Of a stretch of DNA of 64,000 bases, positions 11,182 to 48,560 are shown piece by piece (within the stretch, counting starts at the first letter, position 1; each line of letters opens with the position of its first letter). The notes below the pieces were generated by a model. That model was not told where the DNA came from, made no database searches, and worked only from the letters and a program-made list of their open reading frames with translations. The stretch is from the sequence record KP869102; one strand, given 5' to 3'. The position numbers were made by a program, and so were the translations under genes. Origin of the DNA: Escherichia coli O157 typing phage 4.

Positions 11182-11258
11182 TGGTCTCCACGGAGTGATT
11201 CGAACACTCGACCTCCTGATCCCAAATCAGGCGCTCTACCAAGCTGAGCTACGCGGAG
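11182..11258 (-). tRNA. tRNA-Pro (anticodon TGG)
   Basis: Cloverleaf folded by hand: C1-G72 acceptor, T-arm GAGTG-TTCGAAT-CACTC, anticodon loop TTTGGGA, CCA encoded. Confidence 0.75.
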
Positions 11259-11269
11259 TATTCATTATT

Positions 11270-11344
11270 TGGTGGCCCTGGGTGGAATTGAACCACCGTC
11301 TGGCGATTATGAGTCGCTTGCTTGAACCTTCCAGCTACAGGGCC
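11270..11344 (-). tRNA. tRNA-Met/Ile2 (anticodon CAT)
   Basis: Acceptor GGCCCTG/CAGGGCC, T-arm GGTGG-TTCAATT-CCACC, anticodon loop CTCATAA, CCA encoded. Confidence 0.7.
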
Positions 11345-11345
11345 A

Positions 11346-11421
11346 TGGTGCTGATGGCAGGACTTGAACCTGCAACCTATTGATTACAAATCAATTGCAC
11401 TACCAATTGTGCTACATCAGC
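11346..11421 (-). tRNA. tRNA-Thr (anticodon TGT)
   Basis: Perfect acceptor GCTGATG/CATCAGC, T-loop TTCAAGT, anticodon loop TTTGTAA, CCA encoded. Confidence 0.75.
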
Positions 11422-11426
11422 AAAAA

Positions 11427-11517
11427 GGTGCTAGGTGATGGAGTCGAACCACCCGAATCGCAATGATAACAGATTTACAGTCTGCCCCGCTACCCCTACG
11501 GAATTAACTCACCTAAA
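11427..11517 (-). tRNA. tRNA-Tyr-like (anticodon GTA), long variable arm; possibly aberrant
   Basis: Anticodon arm GCAGA-CTGTAAA-TCTGT, T-arm GGTGG-TTCGACT-CCATC, variable hairpin; acceptor stem pairs imperfectly. Confidence 0.45.
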
Positions 11518-11643
11518 TACTAATATTTAAATTCTTTTTAAAATAGCTAGTGTTCTCACCACTAACTATGAGGTATCGGTAAAGTGGTTACCGCCACTTG
11601 CCGAAGATTTACTCTGCTAAAGTAAGCTACATTAAAAAGAACT

Positions 11644-11718
11644 TGGCACCCCGTACTGGACTCGAACCAGTGTCAACGGCTTAGAAGGCCGCTGCTTTAT
11701 CCACTAAGCTAACAGGGC
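11644..11718 (-). tRNA. tRNA-Arg (anticodon TCT)
   Basis: Acceptor with two G-U pairs, T-arm ACTGG-TTCGAGT-CCAGT, anticodon loop CTTCTAA, CCA encoded. Confidence 0.7.
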
Positions 11719-45193: not shown

Positions 45194-45475
45194 ATGAAAA
45201 AGATTTGCGATACAGATGTGGAGTTCAAGGTGTGTAGTAAGGAGACCTATTGGGAAGTGAGACAAAAGGTATATTTGTTTGGACTTATCCCATATTGGTC
45301 TAAATTCTACTGGGGAGCAGATGAATTAGGGAGATATGCCACCAAAGCTATGGCGCTTATAGGTATAGCTGAATATATTGCTGCTAGGGACAGGGCTGGA
45401 AAAACCTGCTACTACACTGCTGACGAGATTCGTAACAGTGTTTACGTCCCCCAACCACCTGAAGGAGACCGTTGA
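45194..45475 (+). CDS. hypothetical protein
   Basis: 93 aa. Confidence 0.4.
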   Translation: MKKICDTDVEFKVCSKETYWEVRQKVYLFGLIPYWSKFYWGADELGRYATKAMALIGIAEYIAARDRAGKTCYYTADEIRNSVYVPQPPEGDR

Positions 45476-45699
45476 TGAAAGTTAAAGTTTTAGATTCAAG
45501 CTTCTATATTGGTCAGGAGCCTTTAGTGGGTAAAGTGTTTACCGCTGTCCCTAACGAAGATTATCCTGATCTTTTAAAAATAAAGGGCGCAGATCTTATT
45601 GCCGCTGGTGCATCTCAGGACTGCTTTGACAGCCAGTGGACCTACAACTTTGCCCTAGGTGAGGATGTAGAGATAGTGGAGGATGATCATGAAGGTTAA
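45472..45699 (+). CDS. small acidic protein, KGxDLxxAGA paralog family
   Basis: MKVKVLD start, IKGADLIAAGA motif, acidic tail. Confidence 0.45.
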   Translation: MMKVKVLDSSFYIGQEPLVGKVFTAVPNEDYPDLLKIKGADLIAAGASQDCFDSQWTYNFALGEDVEIVEDDHEG

Positions 45700-45943
45700 A
45701 ATTCTTGACTCTAACGTCTACTTGGGGCAATCCTTCCTGAAAGGAAAGGTCATCCCTGCGGTATACTTTGAAGGGTTGCCGTGGGATGATCCTGTGCGGC
45801 AACATCACAGTTATGTAGGCCACAACGTGGTGTTTATCTTAGGATCAGACCTGATCACCGCTGGTGCACCTGAATATTATTTCGGGGAAGAGTCCTATTA
45901 TGCCTTTGGGGTAGGGTCAGATGCAGATATTGTAGAGCTGTGA
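45689..45943 (+). CDS. small acidic protein, KGxDLxxAGA paralog family
   Basis: MKVKILD start, GSDLITAGA motif; start chosen at ATG 45689 after GGAGGA RBS. Confidence 0.45.
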   Translation: MKVKILDSNVYLGQSFLKGKVIPAVYFEGLPWDDPVRQHHSYVGHNVVFILGSDLITAGAPEYYFGEESYYAFGVGSDADIVEL

Positions 45944-45955
45944 TGGGTAACCGTT

Positions 45956-46354
45956 GTGAAAAATAAACTGTTCAAAGTTACAATGAAAATTCGCGGAGCT
46001 TGGAGCGTAAAGCAAGGGCGTATCCCAGAATTTGAGAAAGATTTCTACGTAGTCTCCACCTCGGAGGAGGCTGCATGCTGGCAGGCTGGCTATGCCTATG
46101 CAAGAACCTGGTACGAAGGATACCAGACTGGGGGCTATGACGGAGAAATTATCAGCAAGGGTGTAGAAGAAATTAATGTGTTGACAAGTGAAAAAGTTTT
46201 TGTTATAGTGCATCCAGATTCCAGAGTGAAGCATTACTGGAATGCCAGAACAAAAACTTGGACACCGTTTGCAGATTCTGCTACGCCACTTTTAAACCAG
46301 AAAGCTCTTGACTCTGCCCCAAGTTATGGGGTTGTTGAAGAAAAGCTAAACTGA
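45956..46354 (+). CDS. hypothetical protein (paralog of 48165..48560)
   Basis: Shares HPxS...YW...WTP segment with 48165 gene; apparent GTG start. Confidence 0.45.
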   Translation: MKNKLFKVTMKIRGAWSVKQGRIPEFEKDFYVVSTSEEAACWQAGYAYARTWYEGYQTGGYDGEIISKGVEEINVLTSEKVFVIVHPDSRVKHYWNARTKTWTPFADSATPLLNQKALDSAPSYGVVEEKLN

Positions 46355-46668: not shown

Positions 46669-46697
46669 TTGACACAACGCTTCAGATTTAGTATCAT
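46669..46697 (+). promoter_or_regulatory. sigma70-like promoter
   Basis: TTGACA - 17 nt - TATCAT upstream of hpf-like gene. Confidence 0.55.
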
Positions 46698-46744
46698 TGT
46701 TTTCAAAGAGGGTTTGGTTCCCTCTTCTTTAAAAGGAACATGTT

Positions 46745-47062
46745 GTGCAAATTGAAATCACTGGCAACGTAGAGATCACTGAAGGTATGGTGTCTTTCAT
46801 TTCCCACAAAATGTCTAAGCTGGAGCGTTTGCACCCCTCTGCCAACTATGCACGTGTGAGTGTAAAAGTTGAAAATGATCACCAGGAAGTCATGGCGTTC
46901 ATTTTTGACACTTCCGGAAAAGAAGTTATTGCCAAAGCTAAAGGCAGTAACGCTTACGAGGCAACTGACCGTATGGTAGATGTTGCAGCACGTCAGTTGG
47001 CTAAATGCGGTGGAAAGAAAGGTAAAGGGAAAGGCAAAGTAAAGATTGACTTTGGAGAATGA
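46745..47062 (+). CDS. hpf: ribosome hibernation promoting factor homolog (HPF/RaiA/YfiA family)
   Basis: N-terminal MQIEITGNVEITEGM and overall pattern match the HPF fold family; Lys/Gly-rich C-terminus; GTG start. Confidence 0.6.
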   Translation: MQIEITGNVEITEGMVSFISHKMSKLERLHPSANYARVSVKVENDHQEVMAFIFDTSGKEVIAKAKGSNAYEATDRMVDVAARQLAKCGGKKGKGKGKVKIDFGE

Positions 47063-47071
47063 GGTGCTACA

Positions 47072-47173
47072 ATGGGCGTGATTAAGAAATTAGTCCCAAA
47101 TGTAGAGATTGCATGCTTTGAAATTATGTTTGCAATCGCAGTTGTAGTTAATGTGTTAGGTTACGGCTATTAA
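47072..47173 (+). CDS. small membrane peptide (33 aa)
   Basis: GAGGTG RBS, hydrophobic core FEIMFAIAVVVNVLG. Confidence 0.3.
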   Translation: MGVIKKLVPNVEIACFEIMFAIAVVVNVLGYGY

Positions 47174-47199: not shown

Positions 47200-47469
47200 A
47201 TGAAAATTAAATTATTCAAAACTGAGCTGGCAGACAAAAACTGTGGACTGGTTGAAGGCATGATCGTTGAAGCACAACCAGTGGACTACATGAAGGTAGT
47301 TCGTGATGCCTTGGGTGAAGGCTTTGATCTGATGGAGCCAGCTCTGCGAGAAGATGTTATCGAGATGGCTAAAAAGCACACACCTGAAGGCTTGGTGGTG
47401 TTTGTTGCACCGGGTAACGGAGAAGAGTTGATTGTAACTCCTGATGTGTATGAGATTGTAGAAGAGTAA
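47200..47469 (+). CDS. small acidic protein (MKIKLF N-terminus)
   Basis: 89 aa, acidic tail IVEE. Confidence 0.45.
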   Translation: MKIKLFKTELADKNCGLVEGMIVEAQPVDYMKVVRDALGEGFDLMEPALREDVIEMAKKHTPEGLVVFVAPGNGEELIVTPDVYEIVEE

Positions 47470-47564: not shown

Positions 47565-47828
47565 ATGATTGTTTATTTTAAAACTTCAGGTGGATACCCT
47601 GATTCTCAAAGCTTGATCGGAAAAACGTGCACAGCATACTCACCTCTTGATGAGGAGGTAAGCGATATTCTACGAGATATGTATCGGATTGATCCCCAAA
47701 AAGCTTTTGATCAAAACCTTGTATTTGTCAAGGGCTCAGACATGAAGTCTTTGGGAGCATTCCCTGAAGCAGATGATGATGCCGTTTATTCGTTCATGAC
47801 TCCTTTTGAAGCTATGGTTGTTGGGTGA
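47565..47828 (+). CDS. small acidic protein, KGxDLxxAGA-related
   Basis: VKGSDMKSLGA motif; 87 aa. Confidence 0.45.
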   Translation: MIVYFKTSGGYPDSQSLIGKTCTAYSPLDEEVSDILRDMYRIDPQKAFDQNLVFVKGSDMKSLGAFPEADDDAVYSFMTPFEAMVVG

Positions 47829-47832
47829 GAAT

Positions 47833-48165
47833 ATGAAAGTACGATTTATTGGTGAAACAATTCCTGTGCATCTCCGGTCGCCTGAAGATTCTGCAGATCT
47901 TGCATCTCAGAAGGCGAGAGGTTATGATAAGAAAGTAATCTCAAACGCTGTAGAACTTGAGGCTACTAGTTTACCTGACCCTGCCGCATTCTTTAATCAT
48001 TATGGATACTATTTCAGCAATCTGATGAATATCGGTGAGCTTGTGTTTATTAGTGGTGGAGAAATTGTTAGCAAGCTTGGCGGCGATCCGGATGTCTTTC
48101 ATGAAACCTGTCCTTTTGCATTTGTGGTAGGTTCAGATGTGGAAGTTATTGAGGAGGTGCGGTAA
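47833..48165 (+). CDS. small acidic protein (MKVRFIG N-terminus)
   Basis: Start at ATG 47833; acidic tail VEVIEEVR. Confidence 0.45.
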   Translation: MKVRFIGETIPVHLRSPEDSADLASQKARGYDKKVISNAVELEATSLPDPAAFFNHYGYYFSNLMNIGELVFISGGEIVSKLGGDPDVFHETCPFAFVVGSDVEVIEEVR

Positions 48166-48560
48166 TGGTAAGACTATACCGTGTTGAGTATAGCTCAGAT
48201 ACTGTATACAACGTAAGAAGCAAAGATCGCAGCGACAGAGTGCAAGAAATGTATGTTCTTGCCGACAGTCCGTTATCTGCAGCGTTCAAGGCAGGGTCTC
48301 TTGCATCTCGTTGGAAATTTGAAGGTGGATCTTTCTATGAAGAAACCCTTGAAGATTCTGTTGTTATTTCTTCTGCAGAGGTTTCAGATGACTACGAAGG
48401 GAAAAAGTTCGTAATGCGGCACCCACACAGCAACATTGCGTACTACTGGGATGTTCTGAACAACGAGTGGACCCCAGATCTTCAGAAGGCCACTGTGCTA
48501 ACACCGTTTTTGGCAGATAAGTTTCCACCAGAAGGTAATTTATCCGCACTGTTTCAGTAA
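48165..48560 (+). CDS. hypothetical protein (paralog of 45956..46354)
   Basis: Shared motif RHPHSNIAYYW...EWTP. Confidence 0.45.
   Translation: MVRLYRVEYSSDTVYNVRSKDRSDRVQEMYVLADSPLSAAFKAGSLASRWKFEGGSFYEETLEDSVVISSAEVSDDYEGKKFVMRHPHSNIAYYWDVLNNEWTPDLQKATVLTPFLADKFPPEGNLSALFQ

What the first reader, a model, noticed from the sequence alone, without database searches (positions are those of the whole stretch)
46745..47062. Phage-encoded ribosome hibernation factor homolog
A 105-aa protein shows the HPF/RaiA/YfiA pattern (MQIEITG start, conserved spacing of charged residues) with a Lys/Gly-rich tail, preceded by its own promoter. A phage copy could stall or protect host ribosomes during takeover.
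Basis: partly seen in the sequence, partly recalled or inferred. Interest (0 to 1): 0.65.

Follow-up and report, generated by a model that had tools for sequence, protein, structure and literature searches.

The report
Known phage ribosome hibernation factor homolog
This small gene of an rV5-like E. coli phage really does encode a relative of the bacterial ribosome hibernation factor HPF, but it has been annotated for years and was published and partly tested in 2019, so only its role during infection is still open.

Summary
The ORF at 46745-47062 (+, 105 aa, GTG start) is real. The window is Escherichia phage JES2013, an rV5-like Vequintavirus. The protein passes the curated cut-offs of Pfam PF02482 and TIGR00741 (HPF/YfiA family). 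Its best solved relatives are E. coli and Vibrio short HPF (E about 4e-11, about 40% identity). An AlphaFold model has the beta-alpha-beta-beta-beta-alpha fold and superposes on HPF at 1.1-1.4 A. The homology claim is therefore supported.

It is not new. GenBank and RefSeq call it "sigma 54 modulation factor", RaiA or HPF. Mizuno et al. 2019 (Nat Commun) list this exact protein. They expressed the rV5 ortholog in E. coli and found no stable ribosome association and no change in 100S dimers, but their high-salt wash makes that test inconclusive.

- The gene is a distinct phage clade, kept at the same position in three lineages that have diverged to 56-63% identity, and it is under purifying selection.
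- No cellular relative is closer than about 42% identity.
- It keeps about half of the published ribosome-contact residues (K26, R83, K87, D75). It replaces others in every lineage (Y30, T53, H55, K80).
- It carries a longer, disordered, basic tail whose sequence is not conserved.

The most likely mechanism is a ribosome decoding-channel binder with altered behaviour. Whether it stalls, protects or wakes ribosomes is unresolved.

The parts
46669..46697 (+). Sigma70-type promoter-like site, TTGACA-17 nt-TATCAT, preceded by the extended motif AAACTG
   Evidence: It matches 11 of 12 consensus positions. The rV5 RefSeq record annotates promoter P144 at the equivalent position. AAACTGTTGACA is conserved upstream of the ortholog in L002 but is absent in L005. 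AACTGTTGACA with up to 1 mismatch occurs 10 times in the window against 1.9 expected. This is a consensus match only; no transcript has been mapped.
46733..46738 (+). Ribosome-binding site AAGGAA, with the AGGA core 7 nt upstream of the GTG start
   Evidence: Read directly from the sequence.
46745..47062 (+). CDS of 105 aa plus stop codon: phage HPF/YfiA-family protein (rV5 gp139 ortholog; AGM12525 in phage JES2013)
   Evidence: ORF listing. Pfam PF02482 at 46.4 bits against 23.7. TIGR00741 at 45.1 against 40.9. PDB phmmer against E. coli HPF at E about 4e-11. 100% DNA identity to KC690136/NC_022323, where the gene is annotated. Listed in Table 1 of PMC6375957.
46745..47014 (+). Folded core, residues 1-90: beta1 (2-7), alpha1 (13-29), beta2 (33-42), beta3 (47-55), beta4 (60-67), alpha2 (70-90)
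   Evidence: In the AlphaFold2 model the 10-residue blocks covering residues 1-80 average pLDDT 90-97, and residues 81-90 average 80. Foldseek matches 4hei, 6h4n_x and 2rql at rmsd 1.1-1.4 A. Conserved contact residues are K25, R28, D75, R83 and K87.
47015..47059 (+). Disordered basic C-terminal tail, residues 91-105 (KKGKGKGKVKIDFGE)
   Evidence: pLDDT is below 50. There are 18 residues after K87 with net charge +4, against 8 residues and +2 in E. coli HPF. Tail sequence identity between phage lineages is only 19-33%, with pN 0.44-0.56, but length and basic charge are kept.

Best explanation
The gene encodes a genuine, selectively maintained member of the HPF/YfiA ribosome hibernation factor family. 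By sequence it is closest to the 95-aa short HPF of Enterobacterales. A Vequintavirus ancestor acquired it long ago, and it has since evolved as its own phage clade.

In this phage it sits in an array of small genes of unknown function, behind a promoter of the host sigma70 type. It is therefore probably made by the unmodified host RNA polymerase, i.e. early (inferred, not shown).

The most likely mechanism (inferred) is this. Like HPF, the protein binds the tRNA/mRNA channel between the head and body of vacant host 30S/70S ribosomes, using the conserved basic face of helices alpha1 and alpha2 (K25, R28, R83, K87, plus D75). Every phage lineage has replaced the beta-sheet residues that in host HPF touch m2G966 and the uS9 C-terminus (T53, H55), and also Y30 and K80. 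Every lineage has also roughly doubled the length of the C-terminal tail, which is basic and disordered. I therefore expect binding that differs from host HPF in affinity or in consequences. It would compete with host HPF/RaiA and, through the tail, possibly with RMF. That would let the phage set the hibernation state of the ribosome pool, instead of simply duplicating host HPF.

My estimates are:
- family membership: about 0.97
- binding at the HPF site on the ribosome: about 0.65
- net effect is competition with, or antagonism of, host hibernation rather than promotion of 100S dimers: about 0.35

The single confidence figure given (0.6) is for 'HPF-family protein that acts by binding the ribosomal HPF site'.
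For: Family and fold:
- Pfam and TIGR profiles are above their curated cut-offs.
- phmmer against E. coli HPF structures gives E about 4e-11 at about 40% identity.
- The AF2 model has mean pLDDT 85.4, and its 36 best PDB matches are all hibernation factors.

Closest to HPF, not RaiA:
- The HPF equivalog PRK10470 scores 53.2 bits against 16.3 for the RaiA equivalog.
- E. coli YfiA is not retrieved by phmmer even at E <= 10.

Functional and maintained:
- The gene is present in about 117 Vequintavirus records.
- It sits at the same syntenic position in two uncultured lineages at 63% and 56% identity.
- Window against rV5 shows 7 synonymous and 2 non-synonymous differences (omega about 0.07).
- Between lineages, synonymous sites are saturated (pS about 0.8) while core pN is 0.22-0.25.

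Old acquisition:
- An exhaustive phmmer search of 1.84 billion representatives finds no cellular protein above about 42% identity.

Contact residues:
- The published HPF contacts map as kept (K26, Q29->R, D75, R83, K87, hydrophobic residues at 62 and 86) or replaced in all three lineages (Y30->L/I, T53->F/R, H55->F, K80->V/T/I, N8 deleted).
- The tail is longer and basic in all lineages, and the protein's pI is 9.0-9.7 against 6.5 for E. coli HPF.

Promoter.

Published observation: the rV5 protein accumulates in E. coli, and expressing it did not increase 100S dimers. That fits 'not a plain HPF duplicate'.
Against: - The only experiment found no rV5 HPF peptides in purified 70S/100S ribosomes, although the protein was present in the lysate. 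Genuine loss of ribosome binding is therefore possible.
- K80, one of only four ribosome-contacting residues identical between E. coli HPF and YfiA, is lost in all phage lineages. The alpha2 positions 89 and 91 are not conserved positionally.
- The AlphaFold alignment contained bacterial HPFs, so the model is not independent of the homology it is used to support.
- Early expression is inferred from a consensus promoter match only, and that promoter is missing in one lineage.
- The direction of the physiological effect rests on analogy with the YfiA tail. The phage tail is basic and its sequence is not conserved between lineages, and I did not compare it with the YfiA tail.
Confidence: 0.6

Rival explanations
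1. Plain hibernation or protection factor. The phage protein does what host HPF or RaiA does. It plugs the A/P sites of vacant ribosomes, silencing them during host shut-off or shielding them from nucleases, so that the ribosome pool survives for phage use.
For: It has the same family and fold, and the central rRNA contacts R83, K87, K26 and D75 are kept. HPF binding is reported to hinder rRNA cleavage and ribosome degradation. The negative association experiment used a 500 mM NH4Cl cushion on late-exponential cells, and high-salt washing is the routine way to strip such factors.
Against: Expression in E. coli gave no discernible change in 100S formation, and ribosome profiles stayed almost entirely 70S. 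Four to five contact residues are replaced in every lineage. The host already encodes HPF, RaiA and RMF, so a simple duplicate brings no obvious gain. The score is far below the HPF equivalog cut-off (53 against 125).
Confidence: 0.3
2. The protein has lost ribosome binding and been put to another use. The beta-alpha-beta-beta-beta-alpha fold resembles double-stranded-RNA-binding domains, so it could now bind another RNA or protein target, such as phage or host mRNA, or a defence component.
For: No peptides were found in purified ribosomes although the protein was abundant in the lysate. K80, T53, H55 and Y30 are lost. Beyond the hibernation factors, the fold search returns dsRBD proteins (Staufen, Dicer partners) at weak E-values (ranks 37-50). 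The protein is much more basic than host HPF.
Against: R83, K87, K26 and D75 are invariant across phage lineages that are otherwise only 56-63% identical. These are exactly the residues that contact m4C1402 and neighbouring 16S nucleotides in HPF. That pattern is what continued selection for the same rRNA site would produce. The negative experiment is not decisive.
Confidence: 0.15
3. A decaying, non-functional remnant of a captured host gene.
For: It is a small accessory gene in an array of poorly conserved ORFs. In this particular phage it has a GTG start.
Against: The reading frame is intact in about 117 cultured genomes and in two lineages diverged to 56-63% identity, at the same position. 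Non-synonymous change is strongly depleted. The protein was detected when expressed.
Confidence: 0.03

Closest known systems
rV5 gp139 / ORF144 and its Vequintavirus orthologs (the phage HPF of Mizuno et al. 2019, PMC6375957; PHROG 12469)
   Same: It is the same gene. It is 98% identical to rV5 gp139. The JES2013 protein AGM12525 itself is listed in that paper's Table 1. It matches phrog_12469 over its full length at 233 bits.
   Different: Nothing material. This copy has a GTG start and two substitutions (T56, N69) relative to rV5.
Short HPF (YhbH) of E. coli and other Enterobacterales and Vibrio (PDB 2rql, 6h4n, 4hei; NCBIfam PRK10470)
   Same: Same fold at rmsd 1.1-1.4 A. About 40% identity over residues 1-89. 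It shares the N-terminal MQ.(N/E)ITG..VEIT motif and K26, D75, R83, Q84, L85 and K87.
   Different: It scores 53 bits against the equivalog cut-off of 125. N8 is deleted, and MAFFT places a compensating one-residue insertion near residue 60; where it lies within the beta3-beta4 region is ambiguous. Y30->L, T53->F, H55->F and K80->V. The tail has 18 residues after K87 instead of 8. pI is about 9 against 6.5. It is encoded by a virulent phage behind a sigma70-type promoter, not in the rpoN operon. Expression did not raise 100S levels.
RaiA / YfiA / protein Y (PDB 1n3g, 4v8i; NCBIfam PRK10324)
   Same: Same fold (ranks 19-27). Like YfiA, it extends beyond the short-HPF C-terminus. The YfiA tail runs toward the RMF site and blocks RMF binding and 100S formation.
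   Different: Sequence similarity is much weaker than to HPF: 16.3 bits against a cut-off of 158, and no phmmer hit to E. coli YfiA at E <= 10. The phage tail is Lys/Gly-rich and basic, and its sequence is not conserved among phage lineages. I did not compare it with the YfiA tail. The RefSeq product name 'RaiA' is therefore more specific than the evidence allows.
Other phage-encoded HPF-like proteins (Cronobacter phage GAP32; PHROG 8990)
   Same: Same Pfam domain, also carried by a large myovirus. There is a weak match to phrog_8990 (E 1.9e-5).
   Different: They are separate clades. tblastn with the window protein finds only Vequintavirus records at E <= 1e-3. Mizuno et al. place GAP32 elsewhere in the HPF tree.

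Membership tests
HPF/YfiA family (Pfam PF02482 Ribosomal_S30AE; NCBIfam TIGR00741) | Profile match above the curated whole-protein cut-off | tested here: met
   PF02482 scores 46.4 bits against 23.7, covering profile positions 1-83 of 88. TIGR00741 scores 45.1 against 40.9.
HPF/YfiA family (Pfam PF02482 Ribosomal_S30AE; NCBIfam TIGR00741) | Beta-alpha-beta-beta-beta-alpha fold with two helices packed on one face of a four-stranded sheet | tested here: met
   The AF2 model has E2-7, H13-29, E33-42, E47-55, E60-67 and H70-90, with mean pLDDT 85.4. The top 36 Foldseek PDB matches are all hibernation factors. Caveat: the alignment used for modelling contained bacterial HPFs.
HPF/YfiA family (Pfam PF02482 Ribosomal_S30AE; NCBIfam TIGR00741) | Conserved basic track on helix alpha2 that contacts 16S rRNA (K80, R83, K87, K91 in E. 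coli numbering) | tested here: inconclusive
   R83 and K87 are invariant in all phage lineages. K80 is V, T or I in all of them. K91 is present in the rV5 type only, although other basic residues lie nearby in the tail.
HPF/YfiA family (Pfam PF02482 Ribosomal_S30AE; NCBIfam TIGR00741) | Binds the 30S decoding channel of vacant ribosomes | not testable with these tools
   The published test on the rV5 ortholog found no peptides in 70S/100S ribosomes pelleted through 500 mM NH4Cl from late-exponential cells. That wash normally strips such factors.
Short HPF / YhbH equivalog (NCBIfam PRK10470) | Equivalog-level profile score | tested here: not met
   53.2 bits against a cut-off of 125. Identity to Enterobacterales HPF is 33-39% over the full alignment and 34-42% in local BLASTP alignments.
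Short HPF / YhbH equivalog (NCBIfam PRK10470) | Beta-sheet contact motif to m2G966 and the uS9 C-terminus (T53, H55/R55, E60, H62/V62) | tested here: not met
   T53->F (R in the other lineages). H55->F in all. The E60 position is ambiguous, or K. Only position 62 stays hydrophobic.
Short HPF / YhbH equivalog (NCBIfam PRK10470) | Promotes RMF-dependent conversion to 100S dimers | not testable with these tools
   [quoted passage not shown] RMF levels in those late-exponential cells were not controlled.
RaiA / YfiA equivalog (NCBIfam PRK10324) | Equivalog-level profile score | tested here: not met
   16.3 bits against a cut-off of 158. E. coli YfiA chains are not retrieved by phmmer at E <= 10.
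RaiA / YfiA equivalog (NCBIfam PRK10324) | Extended C-terminal tail that reaches the RMF site and blocks dimerisation | tested here: inconclusive
   An extended tail exists, with 16-18 residues after K87 in all phage lineages. It is disordered in the model, and its sequence is poorly conserved between phage lineages. Its path on the ribosome cannot be modelled with these tools.
Long HPF (Gram-positive type with a C-terminal dimerisation domain) | Second, C-terminal dimerisation domain (proteins of about 180-190 aa) | tested here: not met
   The protein has 105 aa and a single Pfam domain spanning residues 3-88. The tail is 15 disordered residues.

The most novel reading that the evidence does not exclude
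The Vequintavirus HPF could be an anti-hibernation or hibernation-hijacking factor. It would keep the rRNA anchor residues (R83, K87, K26) and so occupy the HPF/RaiA site. Its rebuilt head/uS9 contact surface and long basic tail would let it displace or exclude host HPF, RaiA and RMF. That could let the phage wake or keep usable the dormant 100S/70S ribosomes of starved gut E. coli, or shield ribosomes from translation-targeting defences. If so, it would be a viral counter-measure against dormancy-based phage resistance.
Probability: 0.25. Interest if true: 0.6.

Novelty: already known. Interest (0 to 1): 0.25.

Why it matters
Ribosome hibernation is a main route into bacterial dormancy, and dormancy limits phage replication. 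One defence system (DRT2) is reported to raise RMF in infected cells. A virulent coliphage genus that has kept its own HPF-like protein through substantial divergence therefore probably manipulates this switch.

Showing how it does so would explain how common gut and sewage coliphages cope with non-growing hosts, which matters for phage therapy. The existence of the gene is not news. What stays open and testable is its activity during infection, because the single published assay was not suited to detecting a salt-labile factor.

Tried and rejected
1. A hairpin between the -10 box and the start codon (46707-46728) is not more stable than shuffled sequence (z = 0.52). It is absent from the divergent ortholog. 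I dropped it as a regulatory element.

2. P0122, a 1160-aa protein with nine matches to residues 35-81, is a repetitive PPC-domain protein. The match is spurious.

3. The single 'Salmonella' hit in the phage collection is a bacterial draft contig carrying the host's own hpf at 94.7% identity to E. coli HPF. It is not a phage gene.

4. The word-indexed protein search with the phage protein alone returned only the phage clade. I needed an alignment seeded with E. coli HPF and the exhaustive search to reach cellular relatives.

5. Literature searches found no experimental work beyond Mizuno et al. 2019. I searched for phage HPF with early genes, for viral HPF as an auxiliary gene, for hibernation with Vequintavirus, and for host hibernation genes in the LL12 Keio screen.

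6. Neighbouring genes gave no functional context. All are PHROGs of unknown function with no Pfam hit.

7. Rfam finds no RNA family at or near the locus.

8. The historical name 'sigma-54 modulation protein' appears to reflect gene neighbourhood in bacteria (from my own knowledge). No sigma-54-related feature is present here.

Full report
**What is there**

The window is 100% identical over the tested 3 kb to Escherichia phage JES2013 (KC690136 / NC_022323), an rV5-like myovirus of the genus Vequintavirus. On the + strand an ORF runs from 46745 to 47062 and encodes 105 residues. In this phage the start codon is GTG; the rV5 reference has ATG. An AGGA core lies 7 nt upstream of the start.

A sigma70-type promoter-like site, TTGACA-17-TATCAT, matches 11 of 12 consensus positions at 46669-46697. 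The rV5 RefSeq record annotates 'Sigma70-type promoter P144' at the equivalent place.

**Family membership**

It came out positive.
- Pfam PF02482 (Ribosomal_S30AE) scores 46.4 bits against a gathering score of 23.7, with E 7e-12 over profile positions 1-83 of 88.
- NCBIfam TIGR00741 (HPF/YfiA family) scores 45.1 against 40.9.
- Against all PDB sequences, the best hits are E. coli HPF (2rql, 4v8h, 6h4n; E about 4e-11, colinear over residues 1-89) and V. cholerae HPF.
- An AlphaFold2 model built on a 41-sequence alignment has mean pLDDT 85.4 and the order beta1-alpha1-beta2-beta3-beta4-alpha2. Residues 91-105 fall below pLDDT 50.
- Foldseek against the PDB returns 36 hibernation factors (HPF, YfiA, pY, long-HPF N-domains) before anything else. 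The best matches have TM 0.80/0.90 and rmsd 1.1-1.4 A to V. cholerae and E. coli HPF.

The modelling alignment contained bacterial HPFs, so the model corroborates the homology but is not independent of it.

**HPF or RaiA?**

Public records name the gene in several ways: 'sigma 54 modulation factor', 'RaiA', 'HPF', and in several records, wrongly, 'ATP-dependent protease La'. By sequence it is clearly nearer to short HPF.
- The HPF equivalog model gives 53.2 bits and the RaiA equivalog 16.3. Both are far below their equivalog cut-offs of 125 and 158.
- E. coli YfiA does not appear among phmmer hits even at E <= 10.

The defensible name is therefore 'HPF/YfiA-family protein, HPF-like'. It is not 'RaiA', and it is not an HPF equivalog.

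**Already known**

Mizuno et al. 2019 (Nat Commun 10:752, PMC6375957) list this very protein (Escherichia phage 2 JES-2013, AGM12525, 105 aa) among seven cultivated phages that encode HPF. They note that the coliphage copies cluster among gammaproteobacterial sequences. They propose that viral HPF might compete with cellular homologs and prevent ribosome dimer formation.

They also expressed the rV5 ortholog from pBAD24 in E. coli. The protein was detected in crude extract. No peptides were found in purified 70S or 100S ribosomes, and 100S formation did not change. They themselves list an unsuitable growth phase, real loss of binding, or dissociation during the stringent salt wash as possible reasons.

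Their methods show cells harvested at OD600 of 1 and ribosomes pelleted through 500 mM NH4Cl. Other laboratories use a high-salt wash precisely 'to remove any associated factors' before adding HPF back. So the negative result does not decide the matter. I found no later experimental work.

In the cultured-phage collection, the clade occurs in about 117 records. All are Vequintavirus-like genomes of about 130-143 kb, at 90-100% protein identity. The one 'Salmonella' hit is a bacterial contig carrying the host gene.

Public assemblies contain two further lineages: P0004 (103 aa, 63% identical) and P0008 (104 aa, 56% identical). In each, the gene sits at the same position in the same array of small ORFs. 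Neither lineage has a cultured representative in the collection.

Selection data:
- Between the window and rV5 there are 7 synonymous and 2 non-synonymous differences (omega about 0.07).
- Between lineages, synonymous sites are saturated (pS about 0.8), while pN is 0.22-0.25 in the core.
- The tail evolves much faster (pN 0.44-0.56).

The protein's divergence is mid-range among its neighbours, which run from 27% to 97% identity.

The nearest cellular proteins are 95-aa HPFs of Enterobacterales. They are 33-39% identical over the full alignment and 34-42% in local BLASTP alignments. An exhaustive phmmer pass over 1.84 billion representatives found nothing cellular closer than about 42%. This argues for an old capture followed by independent evolution, rather than the 'relatively recent' transfer suggested in 2019.

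A 2025 preprint (10.1101/2025.10.07.680626) lists the HPF residues that contact the ribosome in E. coli, E. hormaechei and P. aeruginosa. I mapped them onto the three phage lineages.

| E. coli HPF residue | Contact | Phage lineages |
|---|---|---|
| K26 | 16S phosphates | kept (K25) |
| Q29 | 16S phosphates | R28, more basic |
| D75 | contact residue | kept |
| R83 | m4C1402 | kept |
| K87 | base or sugar/base contact | kept |
| H62/V62 | m2G966 | hydrophobic (I, M or L) |
| N/T86 | m3U1498 | A, V or I (P. aeruginosa has Ile) |
| N8 | beta1-alpha1 loop | deleted |
| Y30 | stacks on A790 | L or I |
| T53 | m2G966 | F or R |
| H55 | uS9 C-terminus | F |
| K80 | alpha2 basic track | V, T or I |
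| K89, K91 | alpha2 basic track | not kept position for position |

Every phage lineage has 16-18 residues after K87 with net charge +3 to +4. E. coli HPF has 8 residues with net charge +2. The whole phage protein has pI 9.0-9.7 against 6.5 for E. coli HPF.

The anchor to the 16S decoding region therefore looks preserved. The surface facing the 30S head and uS9 has been rebuilt, and the C-terminus has become a longer basic, disordered tail whose sequence is free to vary.

**Mechanism**

Shown: family, fold, conservation, selection and the residue pattern.

Inferred: the protein still binds the HPF/RaiA site of vacant ribosomes through its conserved alpha1/alpha2 face, but with different affinity or consequences from host HPF.

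In E. coli, the longer C-terminal tail of YfiA runs toward the RMF pocket and prevents RMF binding and 100S formation. A longer basic tail on an HPF-like core could plausibly do something similar near the anti-Shine-Dalgarno region. That reading fits Mizuno's competition hypothesis and the lack of any 100S increase on expression.

I rate ribosome binding at about 0.65 and the competitor/antagonist direction at about 0.35. The rivals are:
- a plain silencing or protection role (0.30)
- loss of ribosome binding with a new RNA or protein target (0.15)
- a decaying remnant (0.03, contradicted by the selection data)

**Expression**

The promoter-like site matches the host sigma70 consensus and is conserved in the rV5 type and, more weakly, in L002. 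In L005 the gene follows its upstream neighbour after 33 nt with no promoter match. 'Its own promoter' is therefore a lineage-specific feature.

The gene lies in a long same-strand array of small genes of unknown function with internal paralog families. That is the typical look of an early host-takeover region, but no transcript data were found.

**Verdict**

The finding is correct and the homology is robust. It is also already annotated, published and partly tested, so its novelty is nil at the level claimed. What remains of interest is the unresolved role during infection. The residue and tail analysis above sharpens that question into specific experiments.

Noticed in passing
window 47072-47173 (+): A 33-aa hydrophobic ORF (MGVIKKLVPNVEIACFEIMFAIAVVVNVLGYGY; rV5 gp140, phrog_15151) starts 10 nt after the HPF stop codon, with a GAGGTG ribosome-binding site. 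It is probably co-transcribed with the HPF gene. No gene is called at this position in the divergent lineages L002 and L005.
   Followed up: partly
window 47046-47073 (+): A second promoter-like site (TTGACT-16-TACAAT with an upstream TG, 10 of 12) overlaps the last codons of the HPF gene. Its -10 box overlaps the ATG of the small ORF, so if it is real it would serve the gene at 47200 instead.
   Followed up: no
window 45472-45943, 47565-47828; 45956-46354 and 48165-48560 (+): There are paralogous small-gene families flanking the HPF gene: three members of phrog_5009 and two of phrog_7379, all of unknown function. The 45956-46354 copy has no ortholog at that position in L002 or L005; only the paralog matches.
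   Followed up: partly
window 11182-11718 (-): A cluster of four tRNA genes: Pro-TGG, Met-CAT, Thr-TGT and Arg-TCT. This is another translation-related feature of the phage.
   Followed up: no
phage collection records MG0656xx ('Campylobacter phage', 18 records): Eighteen unannotated records labelled Campylobacter phage, with host given as C. jejuni, carry this region at about 97% identity to E. coli rV5-like phages. The labels look like mis-assignment or contamination.
   Followed up: no
records OR062525/528/530 and MT884008-11 at the HPF ortholog: Several GenBank records annotate this 105-aa HPF ortholog as 'ATP-dependent protease La type I', which is clearly an annotation error. RefSeq's 'RaiA' is over-specific given the profile scores.
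   Followed up: yes
window-wide, e.g. 14524, 15665, 17482, 37394, 39066, 46664, 56516 (+): The extended -35 motif AACTGTTGACA, with up to 1 mismatch, occurs 10 times in the window against 1.9 expected and a maximum of 6 in shuffles. This suggests a shared class of strong sigma70-type promoters in this phage.
   Followed up: partly
L002 and L005, 4233-4262 (+): In both divergent lineages a near-consensus promoter-like site (TTGACA-18-TAAAAT, 11 of 12) lies inside the HPF coding sequence. The window gene does not have it. It may be chance.
   Followed up: no
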